DNA of 64,000 nucleotides, from contig CAZGQS010000009.1 of NCBI GenBank assembly GCA_964527775.1, positions 3,416-67,415 on the forward strand, in the 5' to 3' direction. Shown piece after piece: positions 3,001 through 16,704 of this stretch. Within the stretch, counting starts at the first letter, position 1. Each line of letters begins with the position of its first letter. Position numbers and translations under genes: made by a program. This DNA comes from an uncultured Rhizobium sp. (GTDB lineage: Bacteria; Bacteroidota; Bacteroidia; NS11-12g; UBA955). Below the pieces are notes generated by a model that saw only the letters and a program-made list of their open reading frames with translations, was not told where the DNA came from and did no database searches.

Positions 3001-3026
3001 ATAATGCCATCACAACAAGTAATTGA
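1..3026 (+). CDS. RecQ-family (DEAH) superfamily-2 helicase with an approximately 560-aa uncharacterised C-terminal region. It is 5'-partial: the reading frame is open to the window edge, and the Walker A motif lies only about 20 codons from position 18.
   Basis: The RecQ helicase motifs are present in order: motif I LLPTGGGKSLTYQLAAL, motif II CVIDEAHCVSEWGHDFRTPY, motif III IFGLTATAS, motif IV/V GVIIFCPHKTS...VMVATKAFGMGIDKPNVRLTIH, and motif VI QESGRAGRDG. There is no Cys4 RQC zinc motif and no obvious HRDC domain after motif VI. The frame has no stop codon between positions 3 and 17, so the true start lies upstream of the window. Confidence 0.7.
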   Translation, partial: GQLPILNRALKNETVIGLLPTGGGKSLTYQLAALLQPGITIIIDPIRSLMVDQYEGLLDIGIDKCDFINSILTREEKVFVQNKVLPHGKTQFLFCSPERLVIQEFREALKKTNENGFFFSYCVIDEAHCVSEWGHDFRTPYLNLGENAIRHCYTKDTKIEIEEGLEVIHNPIPIFGLTATASFDVLSDIERELKLKRNDGKAVIRYENAVRDEINYQIHPITIIAENGVQVNKKTVGEKKLQRTQTIINHINEPDKLLLKYNSPNVYSEILQKTYRDYLPNAEQSVITETEFIESNTDRIILSFENDLPFQKSDKEKFNYGVIIFCPHKTSELGVETYVQQLQSANDKIVYFKGNGNSLDKDEHDKLSFDNLKLFKENDASVMVATKAFGMGIDKPNVRLTIHSNISSSIESFVQESGRAGRDGKTSLSIILYNNQINRDREVLDHFYKTSFKGADKERSIIWELRNKITFPNITNLRLLSDRLSEVFDEELNLKLGGITKGKQGEPDRDWTHIIFIKNSQDVNIGWINIENKTTTNFASRELANEYLEIINSFIPNFQTISKEEIRIFLNLKTANTDAHTGLEKILSDIDFDFSLPIVIPFKNMFFSKGEKGSSEITDEFAFEKHYDYFKQSLQMQSILKNNGINESDLKSKFKDAIKWDNSYEDFINGLPLTNEEDRSLLLETAMMKVKYYIPRNEDDTAKAIYRLTSINIIDTYTIEYQQQVYKVKLSKKSDKQYFDNYQSLVERYTSKEEARKLREKCELDLYENEKSTVISKCLEHLTNFIYDKIADKRKRAIDDMVSLCDETIGISDPIEQSKKIKDNIYYYFNAKYSREGNVAQTETGDIIDADLNKDFVYNLPIEETVWKYIEKIIDFDDNGAQVNNIKHLRGATMRMLRGTSGAPQFNILKSYSLYLLSPNSPQLVTEAIEELKIGINSWSELEPDTFIFEKFFLRFKENIKKHTGEIHDELFGDVDDDYYTTKNLNWLNKFNHRFLIDYNNAITTSN

Positions 3027-3705
3027 AAAATTAGAAAAACTTCAAATCGAACTTGAAACAGTTTCTGTTGCAATAAATCATATCGAGGATGCATCTAAGG
3101 TTGCTAAGTCATCCGCTGATATATTGAATAAAATCCCCGAATTGCTTACTGAATTAAAATCAGTTGAGGAAAAACACCGCGAAGATTTACAACAAGCTCT
3201 CAAAGAAAAAATAGATGCTATTGAAAAACAATTGCAATTATTATTGACCGAGTTAAAAGACAAAGTCAAGCAAGTAAACCAACTCATAGAGGATACAAAG
3301 AAATTAGAGATAGCAATTAATGAGTACGTATTAGAAGTGAGGAAGATAAATTTCCCGGAAAGATTAGACAAAATTGACAACCAAATTTCATCAATCAATA
3401 TTGGAGTTGGTAATCTTCAAACAACTATTCAGCGTTCACACGAAAAAATCGAAAAGGGATTTGAAGACACCAACCAAAATTTAAAAATCGGCTTTTCCTC
3501 TAACAATGAGAGTATCAAACGATCTCAGGAGAAGGTTACTTCTGATTTATTGTCACTTGCAAACGACAAGACATCTGAAATTATTCAAAAATTAACAGAA
3601 CAAAACCAGTTGTTGAAAAACGAAGTCACAACAAACAGAATAATTCAGATTGTGGGACTAACAATAATTTCAATCATTCTCATTTATGTTGCAGTCAAGA
3701 ACTAA
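3004..3705 (+). CDS. Coiled-coil protein with a single C-terminal transmembrane anchor, translationally coupled to the upstream helicase gene (23-nt overlap)
   Basis: Heptad-rich, charged sequence (EKLEKLQIELETV..., KQLQLLLTELKDKVKQVNQLIEDTKKLEIA) ends in a hydrophobic stretch IIQIVGLTIISIILIYVAV. The ATG at 3004 overlaps the stop of the helicase ORF at 3026. Confidence 0.45.
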   Translation: MPSQQVIEKLEKLQIELETVSVAINHIEDASKVAKSSADILNKIPELLTELKSVEEKHREDLQQALKEKIDAIEKQLQLLLTELKDKVKQVNQLIEDTKKLEIAINEYVLEVRKINFPERLDKIDNQISSINIGVGNLQTTIQRSHEKIEKGFEDTNQNLKIGFSSNNESIKRSQEKVTSDLLSLANDKTSEIIQKLTEQNQLLKNEVTTNRIIQIVGLTIISIILIYVAVKN

Positions 3706-3762
3706 CGTCTGGGCAATTGTAAGTAAATTTTATTTTTTTCAATAGTCAATTAAGGGGCTATC

Positions 3763-3836
3763 TATAATACTCCCTGAATCTTGGACCAGTGGTGTGGTTG
3801 AATAATTGAGTCCAACAACTGGGGAGTATTATAATC
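3763..3836. mobile_element. 74-bp MITE-like element: a pair of imperfect terminal inverted repeats related to the ends of the degraded IS3-family element at 6953-7796
   Basis: TATAATACTCCCTGAATCTTGGACCAG (3763-3789) is mirrored by ...CCAACAACTGGGGAGTATTATA (3811-3836). The same TATAATACTCCCTGAATCCTGGACCAG terminus recurs at 6953 and, inverted, at 7785-7796. Confidence 0.5.
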
Positions 3837-3927
3837 TGTTTCGCAATTAATTATCTAAGACAGGTAAATTTGAGTATGTCAAAATATCGTAAACATTAGA
3901 GCAAAGTAATCATAATTAAAAAAAATC

Positions 3928-4290
3928 ATGAACTTGAATTTTATTTTCGAATCTTCCGACCATCTTCGTTATGAAAATGGCAAAATAGTTTCAGGGCCGC
4001 ATGGTGGTGCGCCAAGAGCAGTAAAAGTAGAGCCAAACATCAGTGGCAATGAAGGCCTAACTGTTACAATGTTTAATACAGACGGGCAATTTGTAACTCA
4101 AATGGCTCCTAAGCAAATGAAAATAATCCAACAAACCGAGGAAAAGGTAGTTCTTCGCGGTTACGGACAAGATATGATGGGCCAATCATTTGATGACTAT
4201 GGTTTAACTATTTATTTTAATAATAAACAAGTCTCAAAATGTATTTTGCACATGCACGACAGGAATATTGATATTGAATATTTACCTTAA
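3928..4290 (+). CDS. Hypothetical protein (120 aa)
   Basis: ORF in the AT-rich accessory region; no recognisable motifs. Confidence 0.3.
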   Translation: MNLNFIFESSDHLRYENGKIVSGPHGGAPRAVKVEPNISGNEGLTVTMFNTDGQFVTQMAPKQMKIIQQTEEKVVLRGYGQDMMGQSFDDYGLTIYFNNKQVSKCILHMHDRNIDIEYLP

Positions 4291-4455
4291 AAAAATTTAA
4301 TGAGCCAAACGAAAAACATAACAGAACAAAGCATGACTCATTTAATGACAATAAAAGGAAATTTAAACGTTAGTGAAATCGAAGCTGAATTAATTAACTT
4401 AATTAGTTACTTAATTCTTCGTCAATCTTTTGAGATTTGATGGAAATTAGATTAT

Positions 4456-4677
4456 TTGGATGATAATAAAATTCAAGAAGTTATTAATAATAATGAAGAT
4501 GCTATGGACGAGGTAACTGATACTGCGCAAAGATTATTTTCAGGGGAATATACGCAAAATCATGCTTTATTTGGAATGCAAGTCGTTATAATGAATTTGA
4601 AATTAATGACCACCATTGATTATTCAGAATATTTAAAAAATTACTTTTCTATTACTCATAAAGTGACAATAAAATGA
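4456..4677 (+). CDS. Hypothetical small acidic protein (73 aa)
   Basis: Short ORF with no motifs; the coding call is tentative. Confidence 0.2.
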   Translation: MDDNKIQEVINNNEDAMDEVTDTAQRLFSGEYTQNHALFGMQVVIMNLKLMTTIDYSEYLKNYFSITHKVTIK

Positions 4678-4835
4678 TTTTACAGTGCATACTGACTATT
4701 AGTGATTTATTTTTTCCGTTGCACGCTTAACGTGATTTTAAAAAATCAAAATAGTGTAAAAAAAATTATTTGTGATAGTTAGTTTAATAATTATCACATT
4801 TTTATTAAGTAAAATTTTAAGTTAAATAAAAAAAT

Positions 4836-5462
4836 ATGACAAAGACAATTAGTGAAATTTTAGCAATAATTGAAAATGAAAAAGCTCGCAATCTTGGTTC
4901 TGCAGATTTTCTAAAAATGATAAATTTAAGATTTTTAAACACTCAACAAAACATTATTGACCAGGCAAATCAATATGTTCACGATGGATTAAATGCTTTT
5001 CAAAACGATCAAAATGAGATAGCCAAAATATACTATCAAAAAGCTATTGATTTATTTCCAACATGTAATTCTTATTTTTTATTGTCAATGGTAGAATATG
5101 ACGAAGGTAATTATTATCAAGCTTGGCGTTGGTCTATTGCGGCATCGATGTTTATTAATAAAGCTGAGTTTAATTATTGGAACGCAATCCTGTTAAGAAA
5201 TTTTTGTGTTTTAAACTTGCTTTCCACGAACAACGAAGATTGGCAGAATCAACAAAACAATTTGCATGGAATTATAAAGGATTACATAATTCCTAATTTC
5301 GAATTCTATGAAACTCAAAGAAAAAATTATGGATTAACAGAACTATTTAAAACTGAATTTGAGAATTTAGAAATAGATAAAAATACAATACAATCTTTGC
5401 TTCCTCCAATTGGTTGGATATACAATTTTATCCAAGATAATAAAACTGAACTTCCGAATTAA
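4836..5462 (+). CDS. Hypothetical protein, possibly with TPR-like helical repeats
   Basis: The segment YYQKAIDLFPTCNSYFLLSMVEYDEGNYYQAWRWSIAA resembles a TPR-like helical hairpin. A 7-bp inverted repeat sits upstream at 4771-4798. Confidence 0.4.
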   Translation: MTKTISEILAIIENEKARNLGSADFLKMINLRFLNTQQNIIDQANQYVHDGLNAFQNDQNEIAKIYYQKAIDLFPTCNSYFLLSMVEYDEGNYYQAWRWSIAASMFINKAEFNYWNAILLRNFCVLNLLSTNNEDWQNQQNNLHGIIKDYIIPNFEFYETQRKNYGLTELFKTEFENLEIDKNTIQSLLPPIGWIYNFIQDNKTELPN

Positions 5463-5569
5463 TTACATAATTAGCAGTCTTATTCGAATATTATATTAAA
5501 AGCAAAATGTACGAAAATACAAAAAATGGGAATAGATGTAACATATTAGAATAAATAAAAATAAAAACT

Positions 5570-6883
5570 ATGGATTTTTCATTTCACATACAACAAGGAC
5601 AAAAACTATTAGAAAAGAAAGATGCTATTTTAGTCAAAAAAGCTCTTGAACATTTCATAAAAGCCAATGAAATGACCGATGAAGAAGATATTGGAAAACC
5701 AAAAATACTGTATCTATTAGCATTTGGAAATTTAATAATTGGACAGATCGAACAATCATATAGACTTGCATTTAAAGCGAAACGTAGTATAGATGTAGCT
5801 ATTGAAAACAGTATCTTTTCAATGAATAATATGCGACAAATGCTTGGAGAAAATGATATTGATGCTTTGATCCATCATATTGAAGAAAAATATGCTCAAG
5901 TTGTTTATCAAATAGATACAGAAGATGACAATTTTGACGAAAATGTTTTAGATTTTTCACATATTAGTCAAATGTATCCATCTGTTGTCACTAAAGATAT
6001 AGAGCCAGAATTTTCAATTAACGAAACGGAATTGGCTAAAATGAGCTTTACTGAACATTCTGCACTTTCTAAAAAATGTGCAGAAAATGGTGATCTTGAA
6101 TCTCTTTTAACAATTTCAAAGTATCGCTTTATACATGGTTCAGCGGGAACAAATGAATTTGATTTCCCCATTATGTGTTATTATTATGGACGGTTATCCA
6201 GGATTGAAGAATTAAAAGAGTTATTAATCGAAAAACAATTCCATTTGTTTTTACTGCCAGATTCTTGCAAAGAATTAGCCCAAAATTTACTAAATATTGG
6301 TTTGAAATTTCCACATTTAAACGAACAAGAAATTTCTTACCTTCAACAAAAATACTGTGACTCCAAAACTTACCAAGTGTTAGACGCCATTATGTTCGAC
6401 AGCGATAAACTTTCAAGACCAATTAAAAAATTTGATACTAATTTACTGCGAACTAAAAACACTGAATTTTCAAGGGATTTATTGCTGGATGTCTTTAGCC
6501 ACTTTTCAGCAAATGAGGACCTTGATGACGGATATTCTGAACTTTATGTATATAGTCGAATTAAAAATAATATTATTCGCAAAAAACATGAACACGTTGG
6601 CTTGGGAGAATATTGCATATTCGATCCAATTCTTTCAAATGAATTCTATAACATTTTGAAGAGAAAATACGGAATAGAATGCGCAGATTATTTCGCAGAA
6701 ATACTTTCCTCAGATGACGACTTAGAGAGTTTTAAAACAGATGACTTTTACATTCTTGATGCAAAAAGAATAGAAGACGTAGCGAATGACTATTTTCAAA
6801 ATCCTTCTAAAGTTGAAGACTTGAAGATTGAAATTGCTCAACTATGGCTAAATAAAATTAACTCACGTGAAATAAAATTATAG
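5570..6883 (+). CDS. Hypothetical protein (437 aa) with a helical-repeat N-terminus
   Basis: Long ORF ending 70 bp before the IS-end repeat at 6953; no catalytic motifs recognised. Confidence 0.4.
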   Translation: MDFSFHIQQGQKLLEKKDAILVKKALEHFIKANEMTDEEDIGKPKILYLLAFGNLIIGQIEQSYRLAFKAKRSIDVAIENSIFSMNNMRQMLGENDIDALIHHIEEKYAQVVYQIDTEDDNFDENVLDFSHISQMYPSVVTKDIEPEFSINETELAKMSFTEHSALSKKCAENGDLESLLTISKYRFIHGSAGTNEFDFPIMCYYYGRLSRIEELKELLIEKQFHLFLLPDSCKELAQNLLNIGLKFPHLNEQEISYLQQKYCDSKTYQVLDAIMFDSDKLSRPIKKFDTNLLRTKNTEFSRDLLLDVFSHFSANEDLDDGYSELYVYSRIKNNIIRKKHEHVGLGEYCIFDPILSNEFYNILKRKYGIECADYFAEILSSDDDLESFKTDDFYILDAKRIEDVANDYFQNPSKVEDLKIEIAQLWLNKINSREIKL

Positions 6884-7017
6884 CTAAAAGCTAAAAATCA
6901 CGAGAATACATATTATATCAGTGCTGTCCGGTTAACTTTTTTTCAATCCCTTTATAATACTCCCTGAATCCTGGACCAGAAGTTTAGTTAAAAAATCACT
7001 TAATTTGACTAAACGAT

Positions 7018-7194
7018 ATGACCAAACAAACCCGACGCAAATTCACGCCTGAATTCAAGGCAAACGTTGCATTAGAAGCAGCCAAAGACCAAATCACCTT
7101 GGCTCAGTTGTCGCAAAAATTTGAAGTAAACGCTGTAACCATTTCAAAGTGTAAATCAGAGTTTTTGGCGAATTTTATCCAGTTCGAATTTTAG
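7018..7194 (+). pseudogene. IS3-family transposase OrfA N-terminal fragment (helix-turn-helix region), truncated
   Basis: The translation MTKQTRRKFTPEFKANVALEAAKDQITLAQLSQKFEVNAVTISKCKSEFLANFIQFEF* matches the conserved IS3/IS150 OrfA N-terminus (...RRKFTPEFKAKVALEA...LAQ...V....IS.WKKEFL). The conserved Trp is replaced by Cys and the frame terminates early. Confidence 0.6.
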
Positions 7195-7465
7195 GTTCAC
7201 TTACATTTCCAATGTAAAAGAAACGGAAAATAGCGAACCAGAGGTGCCTGTGGAGAAGCTTCATTATGCGCAAATTGGCAAGATCAAAGTAGAGCTAGAC
7301 TTTCTAAAAAAAAGTGCAAAGAAATTGGGAATACCCGAGAGCGAATAGAAGCCGTCAAACTGAAACGAAGTCCCACTTCGCAGACAATGCGAATTGCTTT
7401 GTATTCCACGCAGTTCGTTGTACTATGCACCAATACCTGAAAAGCCTGAGAATCTGAAGATGATG

Positions 7466-7720
7466 TCATTGATGGATAAATACTTAACATACCATCCCAC
7501 AGAAGGGGTTTTATCGATGGTGGAAAAGGACGTGCAACAGACAATATTTTGATCGAGAGCTTCTGGAAAACTATCAAATACAATCACATTTACCTCAATC
7601 TTTGCGATACAGGTCTTGAACTATTTAAGGAGTTCAGAACTATATCAAGTGTTATAACTAGAAAAAACACCAAGGCATTGGGATGAAACCCAATAATGCA
7701 TATTACAAATCTTTAAAACA
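7466..7720 (+). pseudogene. IS3-family transposase OrfB (DDE integrase) C-terminal fragment, frameshifted
   Basis: The fragments ...GKGRATDNILIESFWKTIKYNHIYLNLCDTGLELFKEFRTI... and ...KNTKALG.NP match the ESFWKTLK...Y.T..E...I..YI..YN..R.HQALG tail of IS3 OrfB, interrupted by stop codons. Confidence 0.5.
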
Positions 7721-7824
7721 AAATGCTGCCTAATACAGCGCAAAATATTAAATTAGCATCAATAACCTTTGGGCCCGACAACTAGGGAGTATTATAGTAT
7801 TTTACATGCAACCAAAATAGTTAG

Positions 7825-10800
7825 CTATATTCTTGTCAATCGTTGCGATTCGATTTTGTTAATATCTTGTAATGTTATGTTATTTTCAGTTACTAAATTT
7901 TCAAGAAATGCGCGGTTTAGTAATGTTATATCATTAGACTTTGCCAAAATTGTTGCTGATGAACTGTAATCATTATTGGTTATTATCATCAGTTTAAATT
8001 GTTCTTTAAATCTGTCCTCATAATAATTTTTTCCTGTGTAAATTTCTTGTATTGCTTCAATTCCAACTAAGGATTTTGTTTGTTTAGCTTGAATAAGATA
8101 ATTTTCTCCCTTTTTTAAAAGCACAATATCAACACCCTTGTCATTAGAATACGGTGTTAGATATACTTCAAAACCTTGTGTTTTGTATAATGCTCCGATT
8201 GTTGCTTCAAACAAATTGGGGTTTAACCGATCAATTTCAGTGAGGGTTTGAAATTTGGGTTTACTTTCGGTTTTTGTTCCAAAAATAGTTCCAAATATTT
8301 CATCAGGTGTAATTTCAGCTTGTTCTGTTGGAAATAAAGTATTACTTGCCAAAGATTTTTTGTTATTCAATAAAGCATCAAGAACTTCATCAAAAGATTT
8401 CATTCTATTACCTTCTTGGTCTTTCATTTCTTCTGGAAATATTGCCATAGGATAATAGACAAAAACATCTTTTTGTTGACCTATACGATAAGCCCTGTCA
8501 GTCGCTTGTTCTTCTTTCGCAGGATTCCAATGCCGTGTGTAATGAACAATATGATTGGCTTTGGTTACATTCAAGCCAACACCTGCTGAAATGGGCGACA
8601 TAATGATCACATTGAAGCCTTCATCCTCCTGAAAACGGTCAATGGTTTGTTGTCGGCTTAGTTTAGATTTCCCTTGAAGCTGTTTTGTAGTTGGTGTATC
8701 TCCATTTATAATACTTGTGAAAACTCCAAAGGTATCGTAAACAACTTTCTGCAACATCTTTTGAGTTTCTCGCCTGTCAGCAAAAATAATTACTTTTTCA
8801 TTTTTGGATTTTATATCCGCTAAAATACCCACGGTAGTTTGAAGTTTAGAGGAACTATTTATAAGTTCATCACTAGAAAACTTCAAAATTTGACTTTCTA
8901 ATAAATACGGATGGTCCGAAATGTCTCTAACTGCCCAAAGTGATTTCAATTTTTGATTTCTTTTTTCCACACCTTCCAATTCTGAATCATTCGCCATTTC
9001 AATTTCCTGCTTGTATCTATCTATTTGAACGGTCGGCATCACTCTTTTAATTCTTGAATTTTGATCATCGTGCTTTTTAGGCAAATCTTTTGCGACATCA
9101 CTTTTTAATCTTCTTTTTATAAATATTCCAATGTTGTTGCGAAGTTGTTCCGTTAATGTTCTTATGTCTGTATTTTCATCACTCAAAGGTTTTTGGTATT
9201 CTTTCGCAAAATCTTTGGCATTGCCTAAAAGTCCTGGAACTGCAAAGTCCATTAAACACCAAATATCAACCAAGGTGTTTTCTACTGGTGTTCCTGTAAT
9301 TGCAATTTTAAAATCGGCTTTCAATGCTTTACTTGCATTGGTTATAAGCGTTCCTGGTGTTTTTATTTTTTGTGCTTCGTCCAATGCTATTATTGCAAAA
9401 TCAACCAATCCTAAACTGATTTGATAAGACCTTAGTGTTTCATAATTAGTTAAAATAATTTGTTTGAATTGTAGCCGTTTTGCATCTTGTTGGTTATGAA
9501 TTGGGTTATTTTCTTTTGTTAAAGATACACCACTATACAGTTTACACAATGGTAAATTCTTTGGACTAAAAAATTTCTCATATTCGTTTTCCCAATTTTC
9601 AAGCAAGCTAACGGGGGCCACAATTAAGTATGGTTTGCCTTCATTATAACTTTGGCTGTGCCATTCTATGAAATACAAAAGTTGCAAGGTTTTACCTAAA
9701 CCCATATCATCAGCAAGCAATCCACCAGCAAAATTTTCTTTAAACAAAGATTGCAGCCAAGAAACACCTTCTTTTTGATGTTCTTTTAAGGTGATGTTAT
9801 TTTTTAAATTTGGTATTTCATAGAAGCTATGTTTCAAATTTTCGGGCAACTCATTTCCATTTGAAAACTCGGTAAGTTCTGCATTTTCTTTAATTATCAG
9901 AACTTCGTGATCTGTTTGCTTCTCATGTTTTATTGGTTTTCTTGGATTTTCAAATTGCTTTTTCGCAATCTTGATAAATTTTACAGCATCTTCAATTGGA
10001 ATTTCAGCGTTTTCCCATACAACGGTTTGCTTTTTTTCATTTATAGCTTTTTCCTTCTGCTCAATGAAGTCATTTAGTTTTTCAGGAGTTTTGAAATAAA
10101 TTTTCTTTTCTCCGTGAACCTTATCTTTTATTACAATGCCTGGAATCCATTGTGATTTATATGGACTTGCAAAAGGGTAGAACTTTGGACTATAAACGCC
10201 AATTTCTTTTACTCTGTCGCTGTAAAAAACAGTAAAATCAATTACATCATCATCAAAAAACAATTCTGGGTGCTCAATGATTTTCTGAATTGCTCCTTGG
10301 TCTGAAATTTTTCTATGAGTTTTAATTTTTCGAAGTTCAACTTTCTGATTTTCTGTAATAACTACTCTTGTTGTTTCGCCATTGTTTGAAGAAACAGGAT
10401 AAACATCACGTATCATTGGCAACTTATCGAAAGTATTGGTAAAACCTATTGCGTTATCAATTTCAACTGATGGTATAATTTCAAAAATGCCATTATTGAA
10501 ATCAACATCCAATTTAATTTTTTCAGGAACATATAATTCCTGATTGTTTAAAAATTGCTCCAAGGTCAACCCACTTTCTTTTGAAAGTGATTTTAATTCT
10601 GATAATTTTTTAAGATTAATAAAATTCCCTTTTTCGCTATCGGATAATTCGTTGAATTCGTCAATCGCTTGACAGAGCAAATACTGGTTTTCGGAAAGTA
10701 GATACACGTTTTCTTCTACTTGTAAAATTGCTCCATTTCGAATTGTCTTTAATCTTGTTCCGTTCGGAGCAAAGTCATAAAATCCATATTTGAACTTAAA

Positions 10801-11094
10801 AGAATTATGTGTTAAAATTCCGCTTGATTCTACAAAAATCTCATAAGGATAACCTTCAGGCAAATCCAATATTTGCTTGTCTATATCATTTAACCTTAAA
10901 ATATCAATACTATCAACTTCACAAGTGTGTTCCGTGTAATCCGCTAATCCGTTATCATACAATTCTTTAAGAATTGCAAGTTGAGATAGATTTTCTGATT
11001 GTAGTTTTTTCCATTCAGAAACAGAAATATTGCTCTCAGTTTCATTTAGGAAAAAGAAAGAAAATTTGTTGTTAGCTTGAATATATTTAAACAT
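7825..11094 (-). CDS. ZorD-like SNF2-family helicase/ATPase (1089 aa) with an N-terminal domain of about 420 aa of unknown function and a C-terminal Mrr-like PD-(D/E)xK restriction-endonuclease domain
   Basis: SNF2 motifs: LKEHQKEGVSWL...LLADDMGLGKTLQ (motif I), IIALDEAQKIKTPGT (DEAQ motif II) and HYTRHWNPAKEEQATDRAYRIGQQKDVFVY (motifs V/VI). The C-terminus FEATIGALYKTQGFEVYLTPYSNDKGVDIVLLKKGENYLIQAKQTK fits the Mrr_cat pattern (S/T.DxGIDhh...hhIQCKR). This is the last gene of a tightly overlapped four-gene operon. Confidence 0.8.
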   Translation of the reverse strand: MFKYIQANNKFSFFFLNETESNISVSEWKKLQSENLSQLAILKELYDNGLADYTEHTCEVDSIDILRLNDIDKQILDLPEGYPYEIFVESSGILTHNSFKFKYGFYDFAPNGTRLKTIRNGAILQVEENVYLLSENQYLLCQAIDEFNELSDSEKGNFINLKKLSELKSLSKESGLTLEQFLNNQELYVPEKIKLDVDFNNGIFEIIPSVEIDNAIGFTNTFDKLPMIRDVYPVSSNNGETTRVVITENQKVELRKIKTHRKISDQGAIQKIIEHPELFFDDDVIDFTVFYSDRVKEIGVYSPKFYPFASPYKSQWIPGIVIKDKVHGEKKIYFKTPEKLNDFIEQKEKAINEKKQTVVWENAEIPIEDAVKFIKIAKKQFENPRKPIKHEKQTDHEVLIIKENAELTEFSNGNELPENLKHSFYEIPNLKNNITLKEHQKEGVSWLQSLFKENFAGGLLADDMGLGKTLQLLYFIEWHSQSYNEGKPYLIVAPVSLLENWENEYEKFFSPKNLPLCKLYSGVSLTKENNPIHNQQDAKRLQFKQIILTNYETLRSYQISLGLVDFAIIALDEAQKIKTPGTLITNASKALKADFKIAITGTPVENTLVDIWCLMDFAVPGLLGNAKDFAKEYQKPLSDENTDIRTLTEQLRNNIGIFIKRRLKSDVAKDLPKKHDDQNSRIKRVMPTVQIDRYKQEIEMANDSELEGVEKRNQKLKSLWAVRDISDHPYLLESQILKFSSDELINSSSKLQTTVGILADIKSKNEKVIIFADRRETQKMLQKVVYDTFGVFTSIINGDTPTTKQLQGKSKLSRQQTIDRFQEDEGFNVIIMSPISAGVGLNVTKANHIVHYTRHWNPAKEEQATDRAYRIGQQKDVFVYYPMAIFPEEMKDQEGNRMKSFDEVLDALLNNKKSLASNTLFPTEQAEITPDEIFGTIFGTKTESKPKFQTLTEIDRLNPNLFEATIGALYKTQGFEVYLTPYSNDKGVDIVLLKKGENYLIQAKQTKSLVGIEAIQEIYTGKNYYEDRFKEQFKLMIITNNDYSSSATILAKSNDITLLNRAFLENLVTENNITLQDINKIESQRLTRI

Positions 11095-12514
11095 TTATTC
11101 CTGCTATATTTTTAAACCAATACTCAAAAACTTGTTCCCATCTTAAATCTCCATCATTATGAGTTAAACGACCTTCTATGTTAGTGTCATTTATACTGTA
11201 TCCAGAACGATAAACAAGCATTGGCATTGAGCCATTTCTTAATTCATCTACACTTTCTAAACGATAATTTAAATTTGGTTTATTATTACCATTCATTTTG
11301 TAAGCATAAAAAGCATAACCAGCATCACTAAATTCAATGAGCATATAGTCTCCTATGTAAAGTATAAATGCCGACACTTCTCTGTTGCTTGAAACAACTT
11401 GAAATCGCCCGTCTAAATATTCTACAATTCTTCTGTCTCTCTTGAGAATATATTTAGTTTGAGTCGGTCCGTAAACTTTAAAAGAAACTCTATTCTTTGA
11501 AGCCACTCTAAGCCAAAAACGTTTTCTTCTTTCATCATTGATACAAACTCTAAAAAAAATATCAATGAAATGTTTAGCAATCCATTCGTCTAGAATATTT
11601 CTTGCTTCAATGATTTCACTTCGTTCAATATCAGTTGCATTTTCAAAAGCACTCCAATTTGAAACATTGCTTGGGTCACCTATTTGAGTAAAAGCAATTC
11701 TTTTTATACTGTCTTGAAGTTCGGAAAATTCAGGCTTATTCGCTTGTATAATTATTTTACTGATTAATCTTTTATTTGTAATTGAACTATTATGTTTAAG
11801 TAAGGCTTGATTCAAATTTTCAATTTCAGTTGATATATTATTTTTGTTCCTTTCGTAATAATTTACAATAACTTTAGAGAAATAGGCATAATCAAACCAC
11901 GATTCAGGAACACCTAATATTTTTGTAGCTTCTTGAATTGGCTTATTAAGTTTTGCTATGGTGTCGCCTAATTCCGAATCTCCATCTTTTAAGTTGAAAA
12001 ATATTTTGTTTTTTTTGAATAAGGCTAATGTATTTCGATTGCCTGAATAATTAACTAATTTTTGACTGATGAAATGCTCTAATTGCTCTAATGATTTCGG
12101 ATATCTTGTTTCCCAATTCCTCAAAAAGCAATCTATCAAACCAACCAAAAATGAATCCCGCCAGTTTGATTCTAACAATGTCAAAGCATATTTCAACTCG
12201 TTTTCATTGATAAAAATGGAAGTTAAACTCTGTTCTGAATGATTCAAGGAATAGGTAAGCGTTCTTAATTCTCTTCGTTCGAAACTCACATCTGTTATTA
12301 TAATAGATTTTTTAAATTTTCTAAACACTTGAGGTATCAGATTATTCCCTGAAAATGTAAACGAATTTGCTCCAACTTCTTCTGATATTTTTTGAAGTTT
12401 GTCAATTCTATGTTCATTCAAAGATGTAACGGCAATTGGAATAATCTTTTGTGCCGTCTGCTGAAATGAAGTCGGTGAAAAATGAAATTGCAAAATGTCC
12501 TGGATCGTTAACAT
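11087..12514 (-). CDS. Hypothetical 475-aa protein occupying the ZorC position of the Zorya-like operon (unverified possible EH-signature-like protein)
   Basis: It overlaps the upstream gene by 1-3 nt and the downstream SNF2 gene by 8 nt. I recognise no motif. It contains a single LEH triplet, and its size is comparable to ZorC. The assignment is positional only. Confidence 0.4.
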   Translation of the reverse strand: MLTIQDILQFHFSPTSFQQTAQKIIPIAVTSLNEHRIDKLQKISEEVGANSFTFSGNNLIPQVFRKFKKSIIITDVSFERRELRTLTYSLNHSEQSLTSIFINENELKYALTLLESNWRDSFLVGLIDCFLRNWETRYPKSLEQLEHFISQKLVNYSGNRNTLALFKKNKIFFNLKDGDSELGDTIAKLNKPIQEATKILGVPESWFDYAYFSKVIVNYYERNKNNISTEIENLNQALLKHNSSITNKRLISKIIIQANKPEFSELQDSIKRIAFTQIGDPSNVSNWSAFENATDIERSEIIEARNILDEWIAKHFIDIFFRVCINDERRKRFWLRVASKNRVSFKVYGPTQTKYILKRDRRIVEYLDGRFQVVSSNREVSAFILYIGDYMLIEFSDAGYAFYAYKMNGNNKPNLNYRLESVDELRNGSMPMLVYRSGYSINDTNIEGRLTHNDGDLRWEQVFEYWFKNIAGINV

Positions 12515-12515
12515 A

Positions 12516-14051
12516 CTAGTTTCTTCTTCCGTTCAACTTACTCAGTTGTTCAGTTAGTTCTTCTAAAATATCTTCTTGTTTTGACGATGCTCCTGCAAGT
12601 GATTCCGCTGTCTTGGTCAATGCATCTGTGTATTTAACTAAATAAGTTTCAAGACTTCCTCCCACAGTCGCTTGGTAATCTTTTAACCCAATTGTTATTT
12701 TTCCAAAAATTTCTTGTAGTCCTTTTTCTATAATTTCAAATTTCTGTGCGTAATCGGCAGAAACAATTTTTGCTGTTTCTAAAGATTTTTGAATTTCAGT
12801 AATTGTATTGGAATTGTTTTGTAAGAACTGGTTTGAGTGCTTAGAAAACTCGTTTTGCGATTCCCCGAATTTACTTGATGATGAGTTTATTTCCTGAGAA
12901 ATATTTCTAAAAGTTGAAATCACCGTTTCAAGTTCTGATTGAGCTTGATTAAGTTTTGAAATGCTACCGTTTACTTCCATGGATAGTCCATTCATTTTTT
13001 CAATACTTAAATTGAAAGCACTCAAAAGATTTTCAGAAACTTGTAAGTTTTTAGATTGTTCGGTTAATAATGTTTGTTGTCCAGTTTGTAAACCTCCGAC
13101 CTGTTCTCTCAATATTTCACTCATATGTTCAACCTGCATTTTCATTTGGTTGGTAGATTCTTCGGATTGAGAAAGTGTTTGCCTAGAAATTTGTTGCACA
13201 ACGTCTTGTAAACCCCTAAAGTTCTCATTGAGGTTATCTGTCATTTTCTGCAATTTTAAGGGGAAATCCGATAACGATCCACCTGCTTGACCAAGTAATC
13301 CAGCCAATCGTTCCATTTCATTTTTAGTATCTCCGCTCATTGAAGTTTTAAATTCTTCGACCATTTTACCCATAGATTCCTGCAGATCTTTAACAATATT
13401 TTGGGTCATATCAGTTGCTGGGTCTTTGAGTTTGTTGCCTAAACTCTCAATTTCGGCTTTCACCAATTTTAACTCAGCTACCACTCCTTCTGCTGGATTA
13501 TTTAAAATTTCCTCAAAACCTGCTGAAATCGTTAATGCTAAATCAGAAGAAAATGTTTGTAAGGATGTTGATTGCTTTTGAGATTCTTTATAAATATCAC
13601 GGAAAATATTTCCTGGTCTAATTGTGTTCCCGTTTTCATCGATAGAAGAGAAATTATTTCTTAATTCTTCAATGACTTCGATAAGTTTGTTTATGGCTTT
13701 AGTTTCATCACTTAAAACTCCTTTTTCATTTTTGTTTTTTACAAATGCTATTCGTTTTGAAAAGATAATGGAAAGCGCTATTCCAACTATAGAAGCAAAA
13801 AATGCTGTTTTTAATCCCTGCAGTAATGTTGGAATACTTTTTTCAATGTCATCAGGATTAAAGAACCATAAGCCGTAAGCAATACCACCAAAAGTCCCTA
13901 AAATACCTATTGTAGTAAACATTGAAGGAATTAATTCTAAGTCATTTAGATTTACTTCACTGTAGTTTTTCTTCGCAATATTGAGTACATAGATTCCATA
14001 AATAAGATATGAAAACATCGATATTGTGATAAAGATTTCAACTATGTTCAT
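12516..14051 (-). CDS. ZorA-like MotA/TolQ/ExbB-family proton-channel protein: a compact three-TM N-terminal domain followed by an approximately 410-aa coiled-coil cytoplasmic tail
   Basis: TM2-TM3 signature IPSMFTTIGILGTFGGIAYGL...LLQGLKTAFFASIVGIALSIIF, compared with ExbB/TolQ LLGLLGTVWGI...GIAEALLATAIGLVAAIPA. The remainder is long heptad-rich, low-complexity helix. The start overlaps the stop of the upstream MotB-like gene by 4 nt. Confidence 0.7.
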   Translation of the reverse strand: MNIVEIFITISMFSYLIYGIYVLNIAKKNYSEVNLNDLELIPSMFTTIGILGTFGGIAYGLWFFNPDDIEKSIPTLLQGLKTAFFASIVGIALSIIFSKRIAFVKNKNEKGVLSDETKAINKLIEVIEELRNNFSSIDENGNTIRPGNIFRDIYKESQKQSTSLQTFSSDLALTISAGFEEILNNPAEGVVAELKLVKAEIESLGNKLKDPATDMTQNIVKDLQESMGKMVEEFKTSMSGDTKNEMERLAGLLGQAGGSLSDFPLKLQKMTDNLNENFRGLQDVVQQISRQTLSQSEESTNQMKMQVEHMSEILREQVGGLQTGQQTLLTEQSKNLQVSENLLSAFNLSIEKMNGLSMEVNGSISKLNQAQSELETVISTFRNISQEINSSSSKFGESQNEFSKHSNQFLQNNSNTITEIQKSLETAKIVSADYAQKFEIIEKGLQEIFGKITIGLKDYQATVGGSLETYLVKYTDALTKTAESLAGASSKQEDILEELTEQLSKLNGRRN

Positions 14052-14770
14052 TTTTGTTCAATTTTTTTAAGTGCTTCGTTAATAATGTCTTCGCTAGTTG
14101 TTACAATTCTAAATTCAACTCGTCTTGATTTGTCATTGTCAATTGGCTGCTTGCTGCCAAATGCTATTTTAAATTCTTTATCTACAGTTCGTCCGTATGA
14201 AAGACCATTGGCTGTCAACCAATACTGTAATCTATCTTTTTTATTTGGTTCTAGATTAATAAAACAATCTTGTTGTCTCAGAAATCCTAAAACATTTCTT
14301 GCTCTGTTTTGAGACAATTCCATATTGTCAATGTAGGGGTCGCTCGTTTTATTAATGGGTTTAGTATTTGTGTGTCCTTCGATACGAATTTCTGCAATTT
14401 TATCAATGTATTTATCTTGTAAAACAACTCTTAAATATTTAGGCAGAAACTCTCTTAAAATACTTTGGAAAGTAGTAGTAACATCTGATTTTCCTTCATC
14501 AAACAAAACCTGTGGATTTGTAAATTTTATTGACAAATCATTGTCAAGTTTTAAATTCCATTTTGCAAAATCTTTTTTAAAAGCTTCATTTAATTCGATA
14601 TATAAAGCGACTTTTGATTCTTCATAGTCCTTAAATATTTGATTTTGTTCCTTCTGTCGCTTTTCCATCAATGCCATATAAGAAATAGACATGAAAAGAA
14701 AAATCACCATTAAAACTGTCATAAGGTCGGCCAAGGGAATCCAATGACTTTCTTTCTTCGTTCCTGACAT
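14048..14770 (-). CDS. ZorB-like MotB/OmpA-family protein (N-terminal TM plug with the conserved Asp, plus a C-terminal OmpA-like peptidoglycan-binding domain)
   Basis: HWIPLADLMTVLMVIFLFM matches the MotB IAYADFMTAMMAFFLVMW motif, including the conserved Asp. IRIEGHTNTKP...NMELSQNRARNVLGFL matches the OmpA_C signature (GHTD...N..LS..RA..V). It is the first gene of the minus-strand operon. Confidence 0.75.
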   Translation of the reverse strand: MSGTKKESHWIPLADLMTVLMVIFLFMSISYMALMEKRQKEQNQIFKDYEESKVALYIELNEAFKKDFAKWNLKLDNDLSIKFTNPQVLFDEGKSDVTTTFQSILREFLPKYLRVVLQDKYIDKIAEIRIEGHTNTKPINKTSDPYIDNMELSQNRARNVLGFLRQQDCFINLEPNKKDRLQYWLTANGLSYGRTVDKEFKIAFGSKQPIDNDKSRRVEFRIVTTSEDIINEALKKIEQK

Positions 14771-15303
14771 TTATTTCTCTGTATTATTTAAGAATGTGGA
14801 ATGTAATTTTGTGCGATGGGTTGCAATTCTTTTGGTTTTGCGAAAGCGTATAATTGCCTATTCATTTTTTTAGTCTTTTTAATTTAGCATTGTCTATGTT
14901 TTAGTGACAGCTAATTCAGTTATACTCTCAATGATAATTCGCTTTGGGATTCAATAGGGCCTTTTTGCGCAATTTCATTTAACATATAATCCCTCCAAAA
15001 TTAATCAAAATCAAGAAAATAACCATATCGGTTGATAATAACCTGCAATGGTAAATAATAGTCAACTAGCATCCAACAATCATCTCAAATATTGTCTACT
15101 CAAAAGGAAAAATAAATTAAAACTCCATCGGCATTCACGCTGCAATGACCGTCTCAGAAATGATTAACAGTTTCGATAAAGCTGATTCCATTAGACCAAG
15201 ATGGCGATCACTTTTGGATCATTAGCAAATGTGATGGTCTATGCAGCTGACTCTGCCGGAGTTGAATATGTGATCAACGGTTTCGACAAATTATCCGGTT
15301 AGA

Positions 15304-16083
15304 TTAGTTAAAAAATTGCCCTCGTTCAGTTGGTTTAGATAAATTCATCCAATAAATGACCACAGGCTCCAACTCTTCTGATTTTCCATTGGAATTTACA
15401 TCTTTACGAGCAAAAATGTATAAATAGTCATTAATGTGATCATATTCAGATTTAATCACATTTAGATTTTTGGGAATTAGTTCAGATATTTTATCGCCTG
15501 ACATATCAAATAGATATAACCTTCTCAAGTCCTTATCATTGATAAAACTATCCTTATTTGTATCTTCGTCATACGCTGAAACCATGATGTAATCTCGTAA
15601 TATACGTTTACCTTTTAATGTATCTATTGTTTCGGTTGGATAATAAATAGTGTTTATTAACAATGGTTTATTAAACAATGCTTTTTGTTTTTTTTGATTT
15701 AGATCATGGATGTATACATTTACCATTTTACGCCCATAAACTGCTCTAAAACCCGGAATTAAGTTATTATTCCAGTTATCGTTTGTTATACCTGGGGCGG
15801 GATAAGAGTAATGAAAATCAGGTGAACCAGAATAGAATCCATCAGTGTAATTGTTTTTCAGCATCTGAAAAATAGGCGTAATTCGAATGTTTGGATATCT
15901 AGTGATTAAAATGTTTTGGGGACGTGAGGCTACATTACTTGCATTTGATGGAATCTCATTGCAATCAACACTCGAACCCTCTGTTGCTCTTGTAAGAGTT
16001 TGTCTCCTACTCTTCTTTTGATTATCAGAACAGCTCAATATTAAACATATACTTAAAAGGCGAAAAACGATTGTGATCTTCAT
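15304..16083 (-). CDS. Hypothetical lipoprotein (signal peptide plus lipobox Cys)
   Basis: The N-terminus MKITIVFRLLSICLILSCSDNQ has an LSC lipobox; no other motifs. Confidence 0.45.
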   Translation of the reverse strand: MKITIVFRLLSICLILSCSDNQKKSRRQTLTRATEGSSVDCNEIPSNASNVASRPQNILITRYPNIRITPIFQMLKNNYTDGFYSGSPDFHYSYPAPGITNDNWNNNLIPGFRAVYGRKMVNVYIHDLNQKKQKALFNKPLLINTIYYPTETIDTLKGKRILRDYIMVSAYDEDTNKDSFINDKDLRRLYLFDMSGDKISELIPKNLNVIKSEYDHINDYLYIFARKDVNSNGKSEELEPVVIYWMNLSKPTERGQFFN

Positions 16084-16239
16084 TTTATTAGGATTAGTTT
16101 TTTTATTATTCGGATTGCAGCGCTTAGTTATTGATTGGGCTAAAATAGTATTTTACCTATGTATTAAAAAGGGAATTCAGATGAATCTGTTATTAACCCC
16201 AAGGCCAACAACACAACAAATATTATATTCGTATTCATA

Positions 16240-16704
16240 ATGACCATTCAAAACAAGTATATTTTTTTTATTTATAATTCAGATAAAAACGATCTCACAA
16301 CTGAAAAAATAATGAGATGGCGGGATCTGTTCATTAATGAAAACATATACATTGACAGTTGCGGTATTGATTTAGCTCGTGATGAATATTCAGACTATTC
16401 AGACGCTATTAATATAATTTTAAAGTCAACAATTGAAAAATCTGATGTAGTATTTTTACTAATCACAGAAAACACACACCTAGATTCACAAACAATGGAG
16501 CATTTAAAAATAGCCATTGAATGCCGCAAGAAAATTATTGGATTTGTTTCTGAAGCCATCAAAAATCTAAATGATTACTGGCTAAAATTCAGACTGAATT
16601 CTATATTACCTTTGCAAGACGATGTAATTTTAAATCAGATTAAGAATATCAGAAATTCAACTTTTCCAATCCAAAAAGACCGTGATATTCTTGATATCTC
16701 TTAG
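16240..16704 (+). CDS. Hypothetical 154-aa protein with a possible TIR-like / flavodoxin-like fold (STIR/TIR_2-like pattern)
   Basis: KYIFFIYNSDKND resembles the beta-A strand of TIR (xVFISYxxxD). GIDLARDEYSDYSDAINIILKSTIEKSDVVFLLITENTHLDSQTMEHLKIAIE follows the TIR_2 spacing D..G...I...I..S...VVL.S..S..S....E...A. The resemblance is weak and rests on recall only. Confidence 0.3.
   Translation: MTIQNKYIFFIYNSDKNDLTTEKIMRWRDLFINENIYIDSCGIDLARDEYSDYSDAINIILKSTIEKSDVVFLLITENTHLDSQTMEHLKIAIECRKKIIGFVSEAIKNLNDYWLKFRLNSILPLQDDVILNQIKNIRNSTFPIQKDRDILDIS

What the first reader, a model, noticed from the sequence alone, without database searches (positions are those of the whole stretch)
7825..8300. 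C-terminal Mrr-like restriction endonuclease domain fused to the ZorD-like SNF2 ATPase
The last 150 aa or so (FEATIGALYKTQGFEVYLTPYSNDKGVDIVLLKKGENYLIQAKQTK...) follow the Mrr_cat PD-(D/E)xK pattern. This places a candidate DNA-cleaving effector domain on the same polypeptide as the translocase. Canonical ZorD is, to my recollection, annotated only as SNF2_N plus Helicase_C. A dedicated Mrr fold would therefore suggest a different effector solution here, possibly one sensing modified DNA.
Basis: partly seen in the sequence, partly recalled or inferred. Interest (0 to 1): 0.6.

Follow-up and report, generated by a model that had tools for sequence, protein, structure and literature searches.

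The report
ZorD helicase with Mrr-type nuclease tail
The last 140 or so residues of this Zorya anti-phage helicase (ZorD) are a real, well-conserved Mrr-type DNA-cutting domain, but this architecture was already noted when Zorya was first described and is common in databases, so the finding is correct but ordinary.

Summary
ORF 7825-11094 (minus strand, 1089 aa) is ZorD, and its C-terminus is an Mrr_cat PD-(D/E)xK domain (Pfam PF04471, residues 954-1067, E=1.3e-18). A high-confidence model (pLDDT 94) matches MspJI, AF1548 and AspBHI. The residues E963, D989 and Q1002-x-K1004 align to E. coli Mrr E172, D203 and Q219-x-K221. They are 92-100% conserved in relatives down to 29% identity, and dN/dS is 0.06-0.21.

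The solved E. coli ZorD does lack this domain. However, PADLOC describes ZorD as "SWI2/SNF2 helicase, Mrr-like nuclease", and a 2025 Zorya paper credits the 2018 discovery paper with the Mrr-like domain. More than 120 protein clusters 77-100% identical to the query carry PF04471, and so do about 93 of the 150 nearest 50%-identity clusters. Nothing supports sensing of modified DNA: only Mrr's catalytic half is present, with no reader domain.

The most likely mechanism is a ZorAB-triggered SNF2 translocase that carries its own tethered nuclease.

Side observations: the domain is modular, being cleanly lost in a 76%-identical relative and replaced by HNH in others. The operon has the non-canonical order zorB-zorA-zorC-zorD, and its ZorAB proteins look like type II.

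The parts
7825..11094 (-). zorD: 1089-aa SNF2-family ATPase with a C-terminal Mrr-like nuclease domain (the stop codon is included)
   Evidence: PADLOC ZorD PDLC00631 matches residues 3-1078 at 1356 bits. Pfam finds SNF2-rel_dom, Helicase_C and Mrr_cat. The best PDB sequence hit is E. coli ZorD 8qy7_A at E=8.7e-132. The best Foldseek hit of the full-length model is 8qy7 at E=2.4e-61 over 990 columns.
7828..8253 (-). Mrr-like PD-(D/E)xK nuclease domain, residues about 948-1089 (the Pfam Mrr_cat match is 954-1067, window 7894-8235)
   Evidence: Pfam E=1.3e-18. The AF2 model of residues 940-1089 has pLDDT 94.1 and pTM 0.88. Foldseek against the PDB finds MspJI 4f0p at 1.3e-6, AF1548 1y88 at 7.1e-6, EndoMS, AspBHI and Hjc. 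hhalign to E. coli Mrr residues 160-288 gives E=2.3e-5. dN/dS is 0.06-0.21.
8206..8208 (-). Codon for E963, the acidic residue of the first helix (F-E motif)
   Evidence: Conserved in 90 of 94 homologous domains and in at least 90% of 71 full-length relatives. It aligns to E172 of E. coli Mrr.
8128..8130 (-). Codon for D989 (G-x-D motif), the predicted metal-binding catalytic aspartate
   Evidence: Conserved in 93 of 94 domains and invariant in 71 full-length relatives down to 29% identity. It aligns to D203 of E. coli Mrr. The codon GAT was read directly from the sequence.
8083..8091 (-). Codons for Q1002-A1003-K1004, the (E/Q)xK half of the PD-(D/E)xK motif
   Evidence: Q is conserved in 87 of 94 domains and K in 89 of 94. 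They align to Q219-A-K221 of E. coli Mrr and to E-C-K of AF1548. The codons CAA GCT AAA were read directly from the sequence.
8254..8319 (-). Low-confidence linker, residues about 926-947, between the Snf2 core and the nuclease domain
   Evidence: The full-length AF2 model has pLDDT of about 55-74 for residues 911-940, and residues 924-926 fall below 50. Columns 940-961 are poorly conserved. ZorD in L019 stops inside this linker.
8320..9804 (-). Snf2 ATPase core, residues about 431-925, with intact motif I (G465-x-G467-K468-T469) and DEAQ box (572-575)
   Evidence: Pfam SNF2-rel_dom covers 439-730 and Helicase_C covers 755-872. G465, G467, K468, T469 and E573 are invariant, and D572 and Q575 are at least 90% conserved.
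9805..11094 (-). ZorD N-terminal domain, residues 1-430, with no Pfam family
   Evidence: Pfam finds no hit here. The Foldseek alignment to E. coli ZorD spans 990 columns. phmmer aligns query residues 282-924 to 8qy7 residues 419-1066.
11087..12514 (-). zorC, 475 aa, EH_Signature protein; its end overlaps the zorD start by 8 nt
   Evidence: Pfam EH_Signature E=5.4e-17. PADLOC ZorC E=4e-18. It lies immediately upstream of zorD in 25 of the 26 related loci; the exception is L026, a 616-base fragment.
12516..14051 (-). zorA, 511 aa, a MotA/ExbB-like stator subunit with a long helical tail
   Evidence: PADLOC ZorA2 PDLC00635 E=4.5e-37. Pfam MotA_ExbB matches residues 31-110.
14048..14770 (-). zorB, 240 aa, MotB-like with an OmpA peptidoglycan-binding domain; it is the first gene of the operon and overlaps the zorA start by 4 nt
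   Evidence: PADLOC ZorB2 PDLC00641 E=3.4e-81. Pfam finds OmpA and MotB_plug. The transmembrane aspartate D15 is visible in the translation.
7725..7739 (-). Terminator-like hairpin plus T-run about 86 nt downstream of the zorD stop codon
   Evidence: This is a consensus scan hit only. It is weak evidence.

Best explanation
This is the ZorD subunit of a four-gene Zorya type-I-like anti-phage operon (zorB-zorA-zorC-zorD). It belongs to the common ZorD subfamily that carries a C-terminal Mrr-type PD-(D/E)xK nuclease domain. The domain hangs on a flexible linker of roughly 20-30 residues after the Snf2 ATPase core.

Proposed mechanism. The steps shown for E. coli Zorya are inferred to apply here. 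The membrane ZorA5B2 proton-driven motor detects phage entry at the envelope and signals through the ZorA tail. ZorC, the EH-signature protein, binds DNA and helps recruit ZorD. ZorD then uses ATP to engage and translocate on the invading DNA. In this subfamily the DNA is cut by the tethered Mrr-like active site (E963, D989, Q1002-x-K1004). This resembles a Type I/III restriction motor-nuclease or other helicase-nuclease defence effectors.

Shown here: the domain identity, the fold, conservation of the active site, purifying selection, and operon linkage. Inferred: catalytic activity, coupling to the motor, and activation by ZorAB/ZorC. The domain is a generic cutter, not a sensor of modified DNA. 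The confidence given (0.75) is for the whole statement; identity as a ZorD with a genuine Mrr_cat domain is about 0.97, and the claim that the Mrr site is the working effector nuclease is about 0.7.
For: ZorD identity: PADLOC model PDLC00631 matches end to end at 1356 bits, and its own description reads 'SWI2/SNF2 helicase, Mrr-like nuclease'. The best PDB hits are E. coli ZorD 8qy7 by sequence (8.7e-132) and by fold (2.4e-61, 990 columns).

Operon: ZorB, ZorA and ZorC lie immediately upstream with overlapping stop and start codons. All four genes are seen together in 21 of the 26 related loci, and the others are short or cut at a contig end. The flanking genes are not shared between loci.

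Nuclease domain: Pfam Mrr_cat E=1.3e-18 over the full model. AF2 pLDDT is 94.1. Foldseek matches MspJI, AF1548, EndoMS, AspBHI and Hjc at probability 1.00. hhalign to E. coli Mrr residues 160-288 pairs E963 with E172, D989 with D203, Q1002 with Q219 and K1004 with K221.

Conservation: G987 and D989 are invariant. E963, D985, Q1002, K1004, Y1025 and N1040 are at least 90% conserved across 71 full-length relatives down to 29% identity and across 94 domains. dN/dS is 0.06-0.21 against 17 loci.

ATPase motifs are intact.

Mechanistic frame from the literature: ZorAB is a 5:2 proton-driven motor, ZorC binds DNA, and ZorD degrades DNA and is autoinhibited in E. coli (PMC11946911).
Against: No ZorD that carries the Mrr domain appears to have been tested biochemically in the literature I could search. 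E. coli ZorD degrades DNA in vitro without any Mrr domain, and that activity depends on the ATPase motifs (PMC11946911), so the Mrr domain is not universally required. A 76%-identical ZorD (L019) lacks the domain entirely. About 41 of 141 related representatives end right after the Snf2 core. A few relatives (P0225, P0263) keep the fold but have a degenerate QxK. I could not inspect inter-domain geometry in the full-length model; pTM is 0.64.
Confidence: 0.75

Rival explanations
1. This is a Type IV-like, modification-dependent restriction module. The Mrr domain would make this ZorD cut only modified (methylated or glucosylated) phage DNA.
For: The domain belongs to the same Pfam family as the catalytic domain of E. 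coli Mrr. Its best structural neighbours include the modification-dependent enzymes MspJI and AspBHI.
Against: In Mrr, MspJI and AspBHI, recognition of modification sits in a separate N-terminal reader domain (established knowledge of these families). hhalign aligns ZorD only to Mrr residues 160-288 and nothing to the N-terminal part. Pfam finds no Mrr_N or SRA domain in residues 1-430. The rest of the protein aligns with E. coli ZorD. The same fold also matches enzymes that do not depend on modification, namely EndoMS, Hjc and the Avs4 nuclease.
Confidence: 0.07
2. The Mrr-like domain is not a working nuclease. It would be a DNA-binding, oligomerisation or autoinhibitory module, and the DNA degradation would come from the Snf2 C-terminal domain as reported for E. 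coli ZorD.
For: The E. coli ZorD C-terminal domain degrades DNA without any Mrr domain (PMC11946911). The domain has been lost repeatedly among relatives, with at least 20 state changes on a rough NJ tree and a clean deletion in L019. Some relatives have degenerate QxK motifs.
Against: The specific catalytic residues (E963, D989, Q1002, K1004), and not merely the fold, are 92-100% conserved across relatives down to 29% identity. This is expected for catalysis and not for a scaffold. Other ZorD relatives carry an HNH nuclease at the same position (P0259, HNH_5 at 2e-12), which suggests the C-terminal slot is a nuclease slot.
Confidence: 0.15
3. This is a stand-alone SNF2-Mrr restriction-like enzyme that merely sits next to ZorAB-like genes and is not a functional part of a Zorya system.
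For: The NCBIfam ZorD equivalog is not reached (585 bits against a cut-off of 1500). NCBI names homologues only 'SNF2-related protein'. ZorA and ZorB score best on type II models and the gene order is non-canonical.
Against: The zorB-zorA-zorC-zorD block has overlapping reading frames. It is conserved as a unit across about 20 loci from different Bacteroidota genera, while the flanks differ. The PADLOC ZorD model matches end to end. The fold match to E. coli ZorD is 30 orders of magnitude better than to any other Snf2 protein.
Confidence: 0.03

Closest known systems
ZorD of type I Zorya, Mrr-bearing subfamily (PADLOC-DB models PDLC00631, PDLC00628 and PDLC00630; described as 'SWI2/SNF2 helicase, Mrr-like nuclease')
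   Same: The architecture is the same end to end: N-terminal domain, Snf2 core and C-terminal Mrr-like domain. PDLC00631 matches residues 3-1078 at 1356 bits. The gene partners ZorA, ZorB and ZorC are the same. More than 120 clusters 77-100% identical to the query carry PF04471.
   Different: There is no difference in ZorD itself. The surrounding operon has the order zorB-zorA rather than zorA-zorB, and its ZorAB proteins score best on type II models.
E. coli ZorD (EcZorI; PDB 8qy7/8qyc; Hu et al., Nature 2024, PMC11946911)
   Same: The Snf2 core and part of the N-terminal domain are homologous: query residues 282-924 align to residues 419-1066 at E=8.7e-132, and the Foldseek alignment spans 990 columns. 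Both have a DEAQ box and both occur with ZorABC.
   Different: EcZorD ends about 14 residues after the Snf2 core and has no Mrr domain. Its reported nuclease activity maps to the Snf2 C-terminal domain. The window protein has an N-terminal region about 137 residues shorter and an extra C-terminal linker plus nuclease of about 165 residues.
E. coli Mrr (EcoKMrr, Type IV restriction enzyme) and the Mrr_cat family PF04471
   Same: The catalytic domain is homologous (hhalign E=2.3e-5 to Mrr residues 160-288). The E...D...QxK active-site residues match.
   Different: ZorD has no equivalent of the N-terminal DNA-recognition part of Mrr. Here the domain is an appendage of a 940-residue motor protein, not a 304-residue enzyme.
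MspJI/AspBHI catalytic domains and AF1548 (PDB 4f0p, 4oc8, 1y88)
   Same: These are the best structural matches to the modelled domain: E=1.3e-6 to 1.6e-3, probability 1.00, TM about 0.56-0.62 normalised to the query.
   Different: Sequence identity is only 14-21%. MspJI and AspBHI carry an N-terminal SRA-like reader of modified cytosine (established knowledge), which is absent here.
Other defence helicase-nuclease fusions, for example HmaA (Snf2 plus NOV_C nuclease, PMC11232893) and ZorE (the HNH effector of type II Zorya)
   Same: The logic is the same: an ATP-driven motor or a ZorAB sensor paired with a DNA nuclease effector.
   Different: The nuclease folds differ (NOV_C and HNH against Mrr_cat). 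HmaA acts without ZorAB. ZorE is a separate protein with no Snf2 motor.

Membership tests
Mrr_cat (PF04471) PD-(D/E)xK nuclease domain | Match to the family profile above the curated gathering threshold | tested here: met
   67.7 bits against a cut-off of 21, E=1.3e-18, covering model positions 1-114 of 115.
Mrr_cat (PF04471) PD-(D/E)xK nuclease domain | Restriction-endonuclease-like alpha/beta core fold | tested here: met
   The AF2 model has pLDDT 94.1 with secondary-structure order H-E-E-E-H-E-H-E. Foldseek matches MspJI, AF1548, EndoMS, AspBHI and Hjc at probability 1.00.
Mrr_cat (PF04471) PD-(D/E)xK nuclease domain | Catalytic residues D...(E/Q)xK plus an upstream acidic residue, present and conserved in homologues | tested here: met
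   E963, D989, Q1002 and K1004 align to E172, D203, Q219 and K221 of E. coli Mrr. They are 92-100% conserved in 94 domains and in 71 full-length relatives.
Mrr_cat (PF04471) PD-(D/E)xK nuclease domain | Metal-dependent DNA cleavage activity | not testable with these tools
   This needs biochemistry on the purified domain or the full-length protein.
Type IV modification-dependent restriction enzyme (Mrr or MspJI type) | A dedicated modified-DNA reader domain (Mrr_N winged helix, or SRA-like) on the same protein | tested here: not met
   No such Pfam hit in residues 1-430. hhalign covers only Mrr residues 160-288. The N-terminal region corresponds to the E. coli ZorD N-terminal domain.
ZorD (type I Zorya) | Snf2-family ATPase core with intact motif I and DEAQ box | tested here: met
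   Pfam SNF2-rel_dom E=7.9e-54 and Helicase_C E=1.4e-13. GxGKT (465-469) and DEAQ (572-575) are conserved.
ZorD (type I Zorya) | Full-length match to a ZorD family model | tested here: met
   PADLOC PDLC00631 matches residues 3-1078 to model positions 3-1070 of 1071 at 1356 bits.
ZorD (type I Zorya) | NCBIfam equivalog NF041790 (E. coli-type ZorD) above its curated cut-off | tested here: not met
   585 bits against a cut-off of 1500, matching only residues 282-882. The protein is a ZorD of a different subfamily from the E. coli type.
ZorD (type I Zorya) | Encoded in one operon with zorA, zorB and zorC | tested here: met
   ZorB at 14048-14770, ZorA at 12516-14051 and ZorC at 11087-12514 are on the same strand with overlapping ends. 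The linkage is conserved in related loci. The order is B-A-C-D, not the canonical A-B-C-D (PMC11946911).
ZorD (type I Zorya) | Anti-phage activity that depends on ZorAB | not testable with these tools
   This needs plaque assays with the cloned operon and deletion mutants.

The most novel reading that the evidence does not exclude
The Bacteroidota cassette zorB-zorA-zorC-zorD(Mrr) could be a Zorya subtype that has not been formally described. It combines a short-tailed ZorAB resembling type II with type I ZorC and ZorD. In this reading, DNA destruction is carried out by the tethered Mrr active site and the Snf2 motor only translocates. The Mrr-bearing form would be the ancestral state of this ZorD branch, and Mrr-less forms such as the E. 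coli protein would be derived. Motor and nuclease could then be separated genetically. That would clarify the unexplained nuclease activity reported for the Snf2 domain of E. coli ZorD.
Probability: 0.3. Interest if true: 0.4.

Novelty: already known. Interest (0 to 1): 0.15.

Why it matters
As a discovery it matters little. The Mrr-like tail of ZorD is recorded in the literature (the 2018 description as cited by PMC11890865), in PADLOC-DB and in routine JGI annotations. This protein is also 93% identical to an already deposited Emticicia protein.

Its residual value is practical. Every ZorD studied biochemically or structurally so far (E. coli, and Shewanella by model) appears to lack the domain, and the source of E. 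coli ZorD's nuclease activity is not obvious from its domains. A ZorD with a textbook PD-(D/E)xK site has clear point mutants (D989A, K1004A). A natural Mrr-less relative at 76% identity is also available. Together these give a clean system for separating translocation from cleavage in Zorya defence.

Tried and rejected
- A single-sequence phmmer search of the C-terminal 172 residues against PDB sequences gave only noise (C1q, E about 0.25).
- A profile of 27 domain sequences gave AF1548 (1y88) at a non-significant E=0.18. Sequence alone does not link the domain to a solved structure, although the fold search does.
- The look-up of encoding contigs found no record for the exact protein, so the source organism was not identified directly. 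The nearest genome is Emticicia sp. 17c at 93%.
- The 2018 Zorya discovery paper is not in the held library. Its statement about the Mrr-like domain is therefore cited second-hand through PMC11890865.
- Literature searches for 'ZorD' with 'restriction endonuclease domain' and for Zorya with Flavobacterium columnare found nothing.
- I looked for a fifth conserved gene or shared flanks around the cassette and found none.
- There are no tRNA genes in the window to mark an integration site.
- The sigma-70 promoter scan was uninformative (35 hits against 42.5 expected). Bacteroidota promoters are not covered by that tool.
- The C-terminal-only homologue search returned mostly short fragments of ZorD from small contigs, not stand-alone Mrr proteins. 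It therefore gave no evidence that the domain was recently captured from a free-standing gene.
- I considered that a separate nuclease gene might follow the Mrr-less relatives. In L019 the downstream genes are a histidine kinase and glutamyl-tRNA reductase, and in L024 nothing recognisable follows.
Full report
**Observation.** The window carries an ORF at 7825..11094 on the minus strand that encodes 1089 residues. Pfam places SNF2-rel_dom at residues 439-730 (E=7.9e-54) and Helicase_C at 755-872. Mrr_cat (PF04471) lies at 954-1067, covers the full model, and scores E=1.3e-18 and 67.7 bits against a gathering cut-off of 21.

**What the protein and its neighbours are.** PADLOC's ZorD model PDLC00631 matches residues 3-1078 at 1356 bits. 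Directly upstream on the same strand, with overlapping stop and start codons, are three more genes:
- an EH_Signature protein, ZorC (11087-12514);
- a MotA/ExbB-like protein with a long helical tail, ZorA (12516-14051, 511 aa);
- a MotB/OmpA-like protein, ZorB (14048-14770, 240 aa), which has the transmembrane aspartate.

The best solved relative is E. coli ZorD (8qy7). By sequence the match is E=8.7e-132, with query residues 282-924 aligned to residues 419-1066 of 1080. By fold, a full-length AF2 model (pLDDT 85.5) matches it at E=2.4e-61 over 990 columns, against about 1e-30 for any other Snf2 protein. This is a Zorya type-I-like system and the ORF is its ZorD.

**Is the C-terminal domain a real Mrr-like nuclease?** Four lines of evidence agree.
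- An AF2 model of residues 940-1089 built from 27 homologous sequences is very confident (pLDDT 94.1, pTM 0.88).
- Foldseek against the PDB returns the catalytic domain of MspJI (E=1.3e-6), the Mrr-like protein AF1548 (7.1e-6), EndoMS/NucS, AspBHI and archaeal Hjc, all at probability 1.00.
- A profile-profile comparison with E. coli K-12 Mrr, whose gene was fetched, aligns the domain to Mrr residues 160-288 (E=2.3e-5). It pairs E963 with E172, D989 with D203, Q1002 with Q219 and K1004 with K221. This is the D...QxK variant of the PD-(D/E)xK motif.
- These residues are conserved. Among 94 homologous domains taken from 50%-identity cluster representatives, E963 is kept in 90, D989 in 93, G987 in 94, Q1002 in 87 and K1004 in 89. 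In 71 full-length relatives down to 29% identity, G987 and D989 are invariant and the others are at least 90% conserved.

Pairwise dN/dS for the 150 domain codons against 17 related loci is 0.06-0.21. Neither is met.

**Is it new?** No.
- PADLOC-DB (2023) describes ZorD as "SWI2/SNF2 helicase, Mrr-like nuclease". Three of its eight ZorD models (PDLC00631, 00628, 00630) align through the query's C-terminal domain.
- PMC11890865 states that prior work, the 2018 discovery paper, reported that ZorD carries an Mrr-like nuclease domain. I could not open the 2018 paper itself.
- The 120 best protein clusters in the large database are 77-100% identical to the query and all carry PF04471. They come from Emticicia, Pedobacter, Sphingobacterium, Empedobacter, Chryseobacterium, Myroides, Flavobacterium columnare and others. 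JGI names several of them [quoted passage not shown].
- Of the 150 best 50%-identity representatives, 93 carry the homologous domain.

It may also hold for the Shewanella protein, which is modelled in PMC11890865 with only N- and C-terminal (Ino80-like) domains. It does not hold for the family.

**Sensing of modified DNA.** This part of the interpretation has no support. Only the catalytic half of Mrr is matched. No reader domain is detected in residues 1-430, and that region corresponds to the E. coli ZorD N-terminal domain. The same fold is used by many enzymes that do not depend on modification and by generic defence effectors.

**Mechanism.** From the E. coli work (PMC11946911):
- ZorA5B2 is a peptidoglycan-anchored, proton-driven motor;
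- its tail controls defence;
- ZorC binds DNA;
- ZorD degrades phage DNA and is autoinhibited when full-length.

I infer the same signalling logic here. The difference is that this ZorD subfamily carries a conventional nuclease on a flexible linker: pLDDT is about 55-74 for residues 911-940 and columns 940-961 are poorly conserved. The Snf2 motor, with intact GxGKT and DEAQ motifs, would load on and translocate along DNA, and the Mrr site would cut it. Domain identity, fold, active-site conservation, purifying selection and operon linkage are shown. Catalysis, motor coupling and activation are inferred. No Mrr-bearing ZorD has been tested in the literature I could search.

**Modularity of the C-terminus.**
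- The ZorD in locus L019 is 76% identical over residues 1-939. It ends with a stop codon inside the linker (...FGTS*) and is followed by housekeeping genes.
- Loci L024 and L025 (45-46% identical) encode Mrr-less ZorD proteins in canonical zorABCD operons; the one examined, in L024, is 915 aa.
- Among 141 representatives with a complete Snf2 core, 91 have the domain, 41 end within 30 residues of the core and 9 have other tails (the first tally is).
- One of those tails is a clear HNH domain (P0259, HNH_5 at 2e-12) and one is a weak HNH (P0234). Two further tails (P0225 and P0263, counted among the 91) are Mrr_cat with a degenerate QxK.
- A rough NJ tree of the cores needs at least 20 changes of Mrr state under parsimony, with Mrr present at the root. 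That number may be inflated by truncated gene calls.

The C-terminal position therefore behaves as an exchangeable nuclease slot. This fits a catalytic role, and it also shows that the domain is dispensable in some lineages.

**Context.**
- The first 18 kb of the window has 28-34% G+C, against 38-45% elsewhere.
- This region also holds a RecQ/DpdF/PsyrT-like helicase.
- The Zorya cassette is 75-93% identical at ZorD level across roughly 20 loci, nearly all of them Bacteroidota. The flanking genes are not shared, which indicates a mobile defence cassette.
- In that clade the gene order is zorB-zorA-zorC-zorD. PMC11946911 gives zorABCD as the conserved type I order and excluded non-canonical arrangements from its survey.
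- ZorA and ZorB score best on type II models in both PADLOC and NCBIfam.
- All four proteins fall below the NCBIfam equivalog cut-offs, which explains why NCBI labels this ZorD only "SNF2-related protein".

**Verdict.** It is wrong about novelty and unsupported on modification sensing. The feature is an ordinary member of an already described ZorD architecture, so interest is low. Its residual value is as a clean experimental handle on how Zorya destroys DNA.

Noticed in passing
window 11087-14770 (minus strand); loci L001-L023 against L021, L024 and L025: The operon order is zorB-zorA-zorC-zorD, not the canonical zorA-zorB-zorC-zorD. The swapped order is conserved in about 20 loci, nearly all Bacteroidota. 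More distant relatives (L021 with the Mrr domain; L024 and L025 without it) keep A-B-C-D. PMC11946911 excluded non-canonical orders from its survey.
   Followed up: partly
window 12516-14770 (minus strand): ZorA (only 511 aa, against 729 aa for the NCBIfam type I ZorA1 model) and ZorB score best on type II Zorya models (PADLOC PDLC00635 and PDLC00641; NCBIfam ZorA2 and ZorB2). The accessory genes are the type I parts ZorC and ZorD. This may be a hybrid or undescribed subtype. All four proteins are below NCBIfam equivalog cut-offs.
   Followed up: partly
L019 3224-6055: A ZorD 76% identical over residues 1-939 ends with a stop codon inside the linker (...LFGTS*) and is followed by a CHASE2 histidine kinase and glutamyl-tRNA reductase. 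This is a clean natural deletion of the Mrr domain.
   Followed up: yes
proteins P0259, P0234, P0225, P0263 (ZorD cluster representatives): Some ZorD relatives carry an HNH nuclease in place of the Mrr domain at the C-terminus (P0259 HNH_5 at 2e-12; P0234 weak). Others keep an Mrr_cat fold with a degenerate QxK motif.
   Followed up: partly
proteins P0135 (1347 aa) and P0136 (1727 aa): These are ZorD-like proteins that lack the Mrr domain and have long N-terminal extensions containing protein-kinase-like motifs (HRDLKPEN, and DIKPSN or DIKPEN). They look like kinase-ZorD fusions. Their genomic context was not examined.
   Followed up: no
window 1-18000: This is a low-GC block (0.28-0.34 against 0.38-0.45 in the rest of the window). 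Besides Zorya it holds a RecQ/DpdF/PsyrT-like helicase (18-3026, plus strand), several ORFs with no family hit, and an ADP-ribosylglycohydrolase (17581-18537, plus strand). It looks like a defence island. RecQ-like helicases about 32% identical also lie near Zorya in L003 and L008.
   Followed up: partly
loci L009, L010, L014 against the window: Identity is mosaic along the cassette. For example, ZorB is 94-95% identical while ZorD is only 75-82% and ZorC 59-69% in the same loci. This suggests recombination between cassette modules.
   Followed up: no
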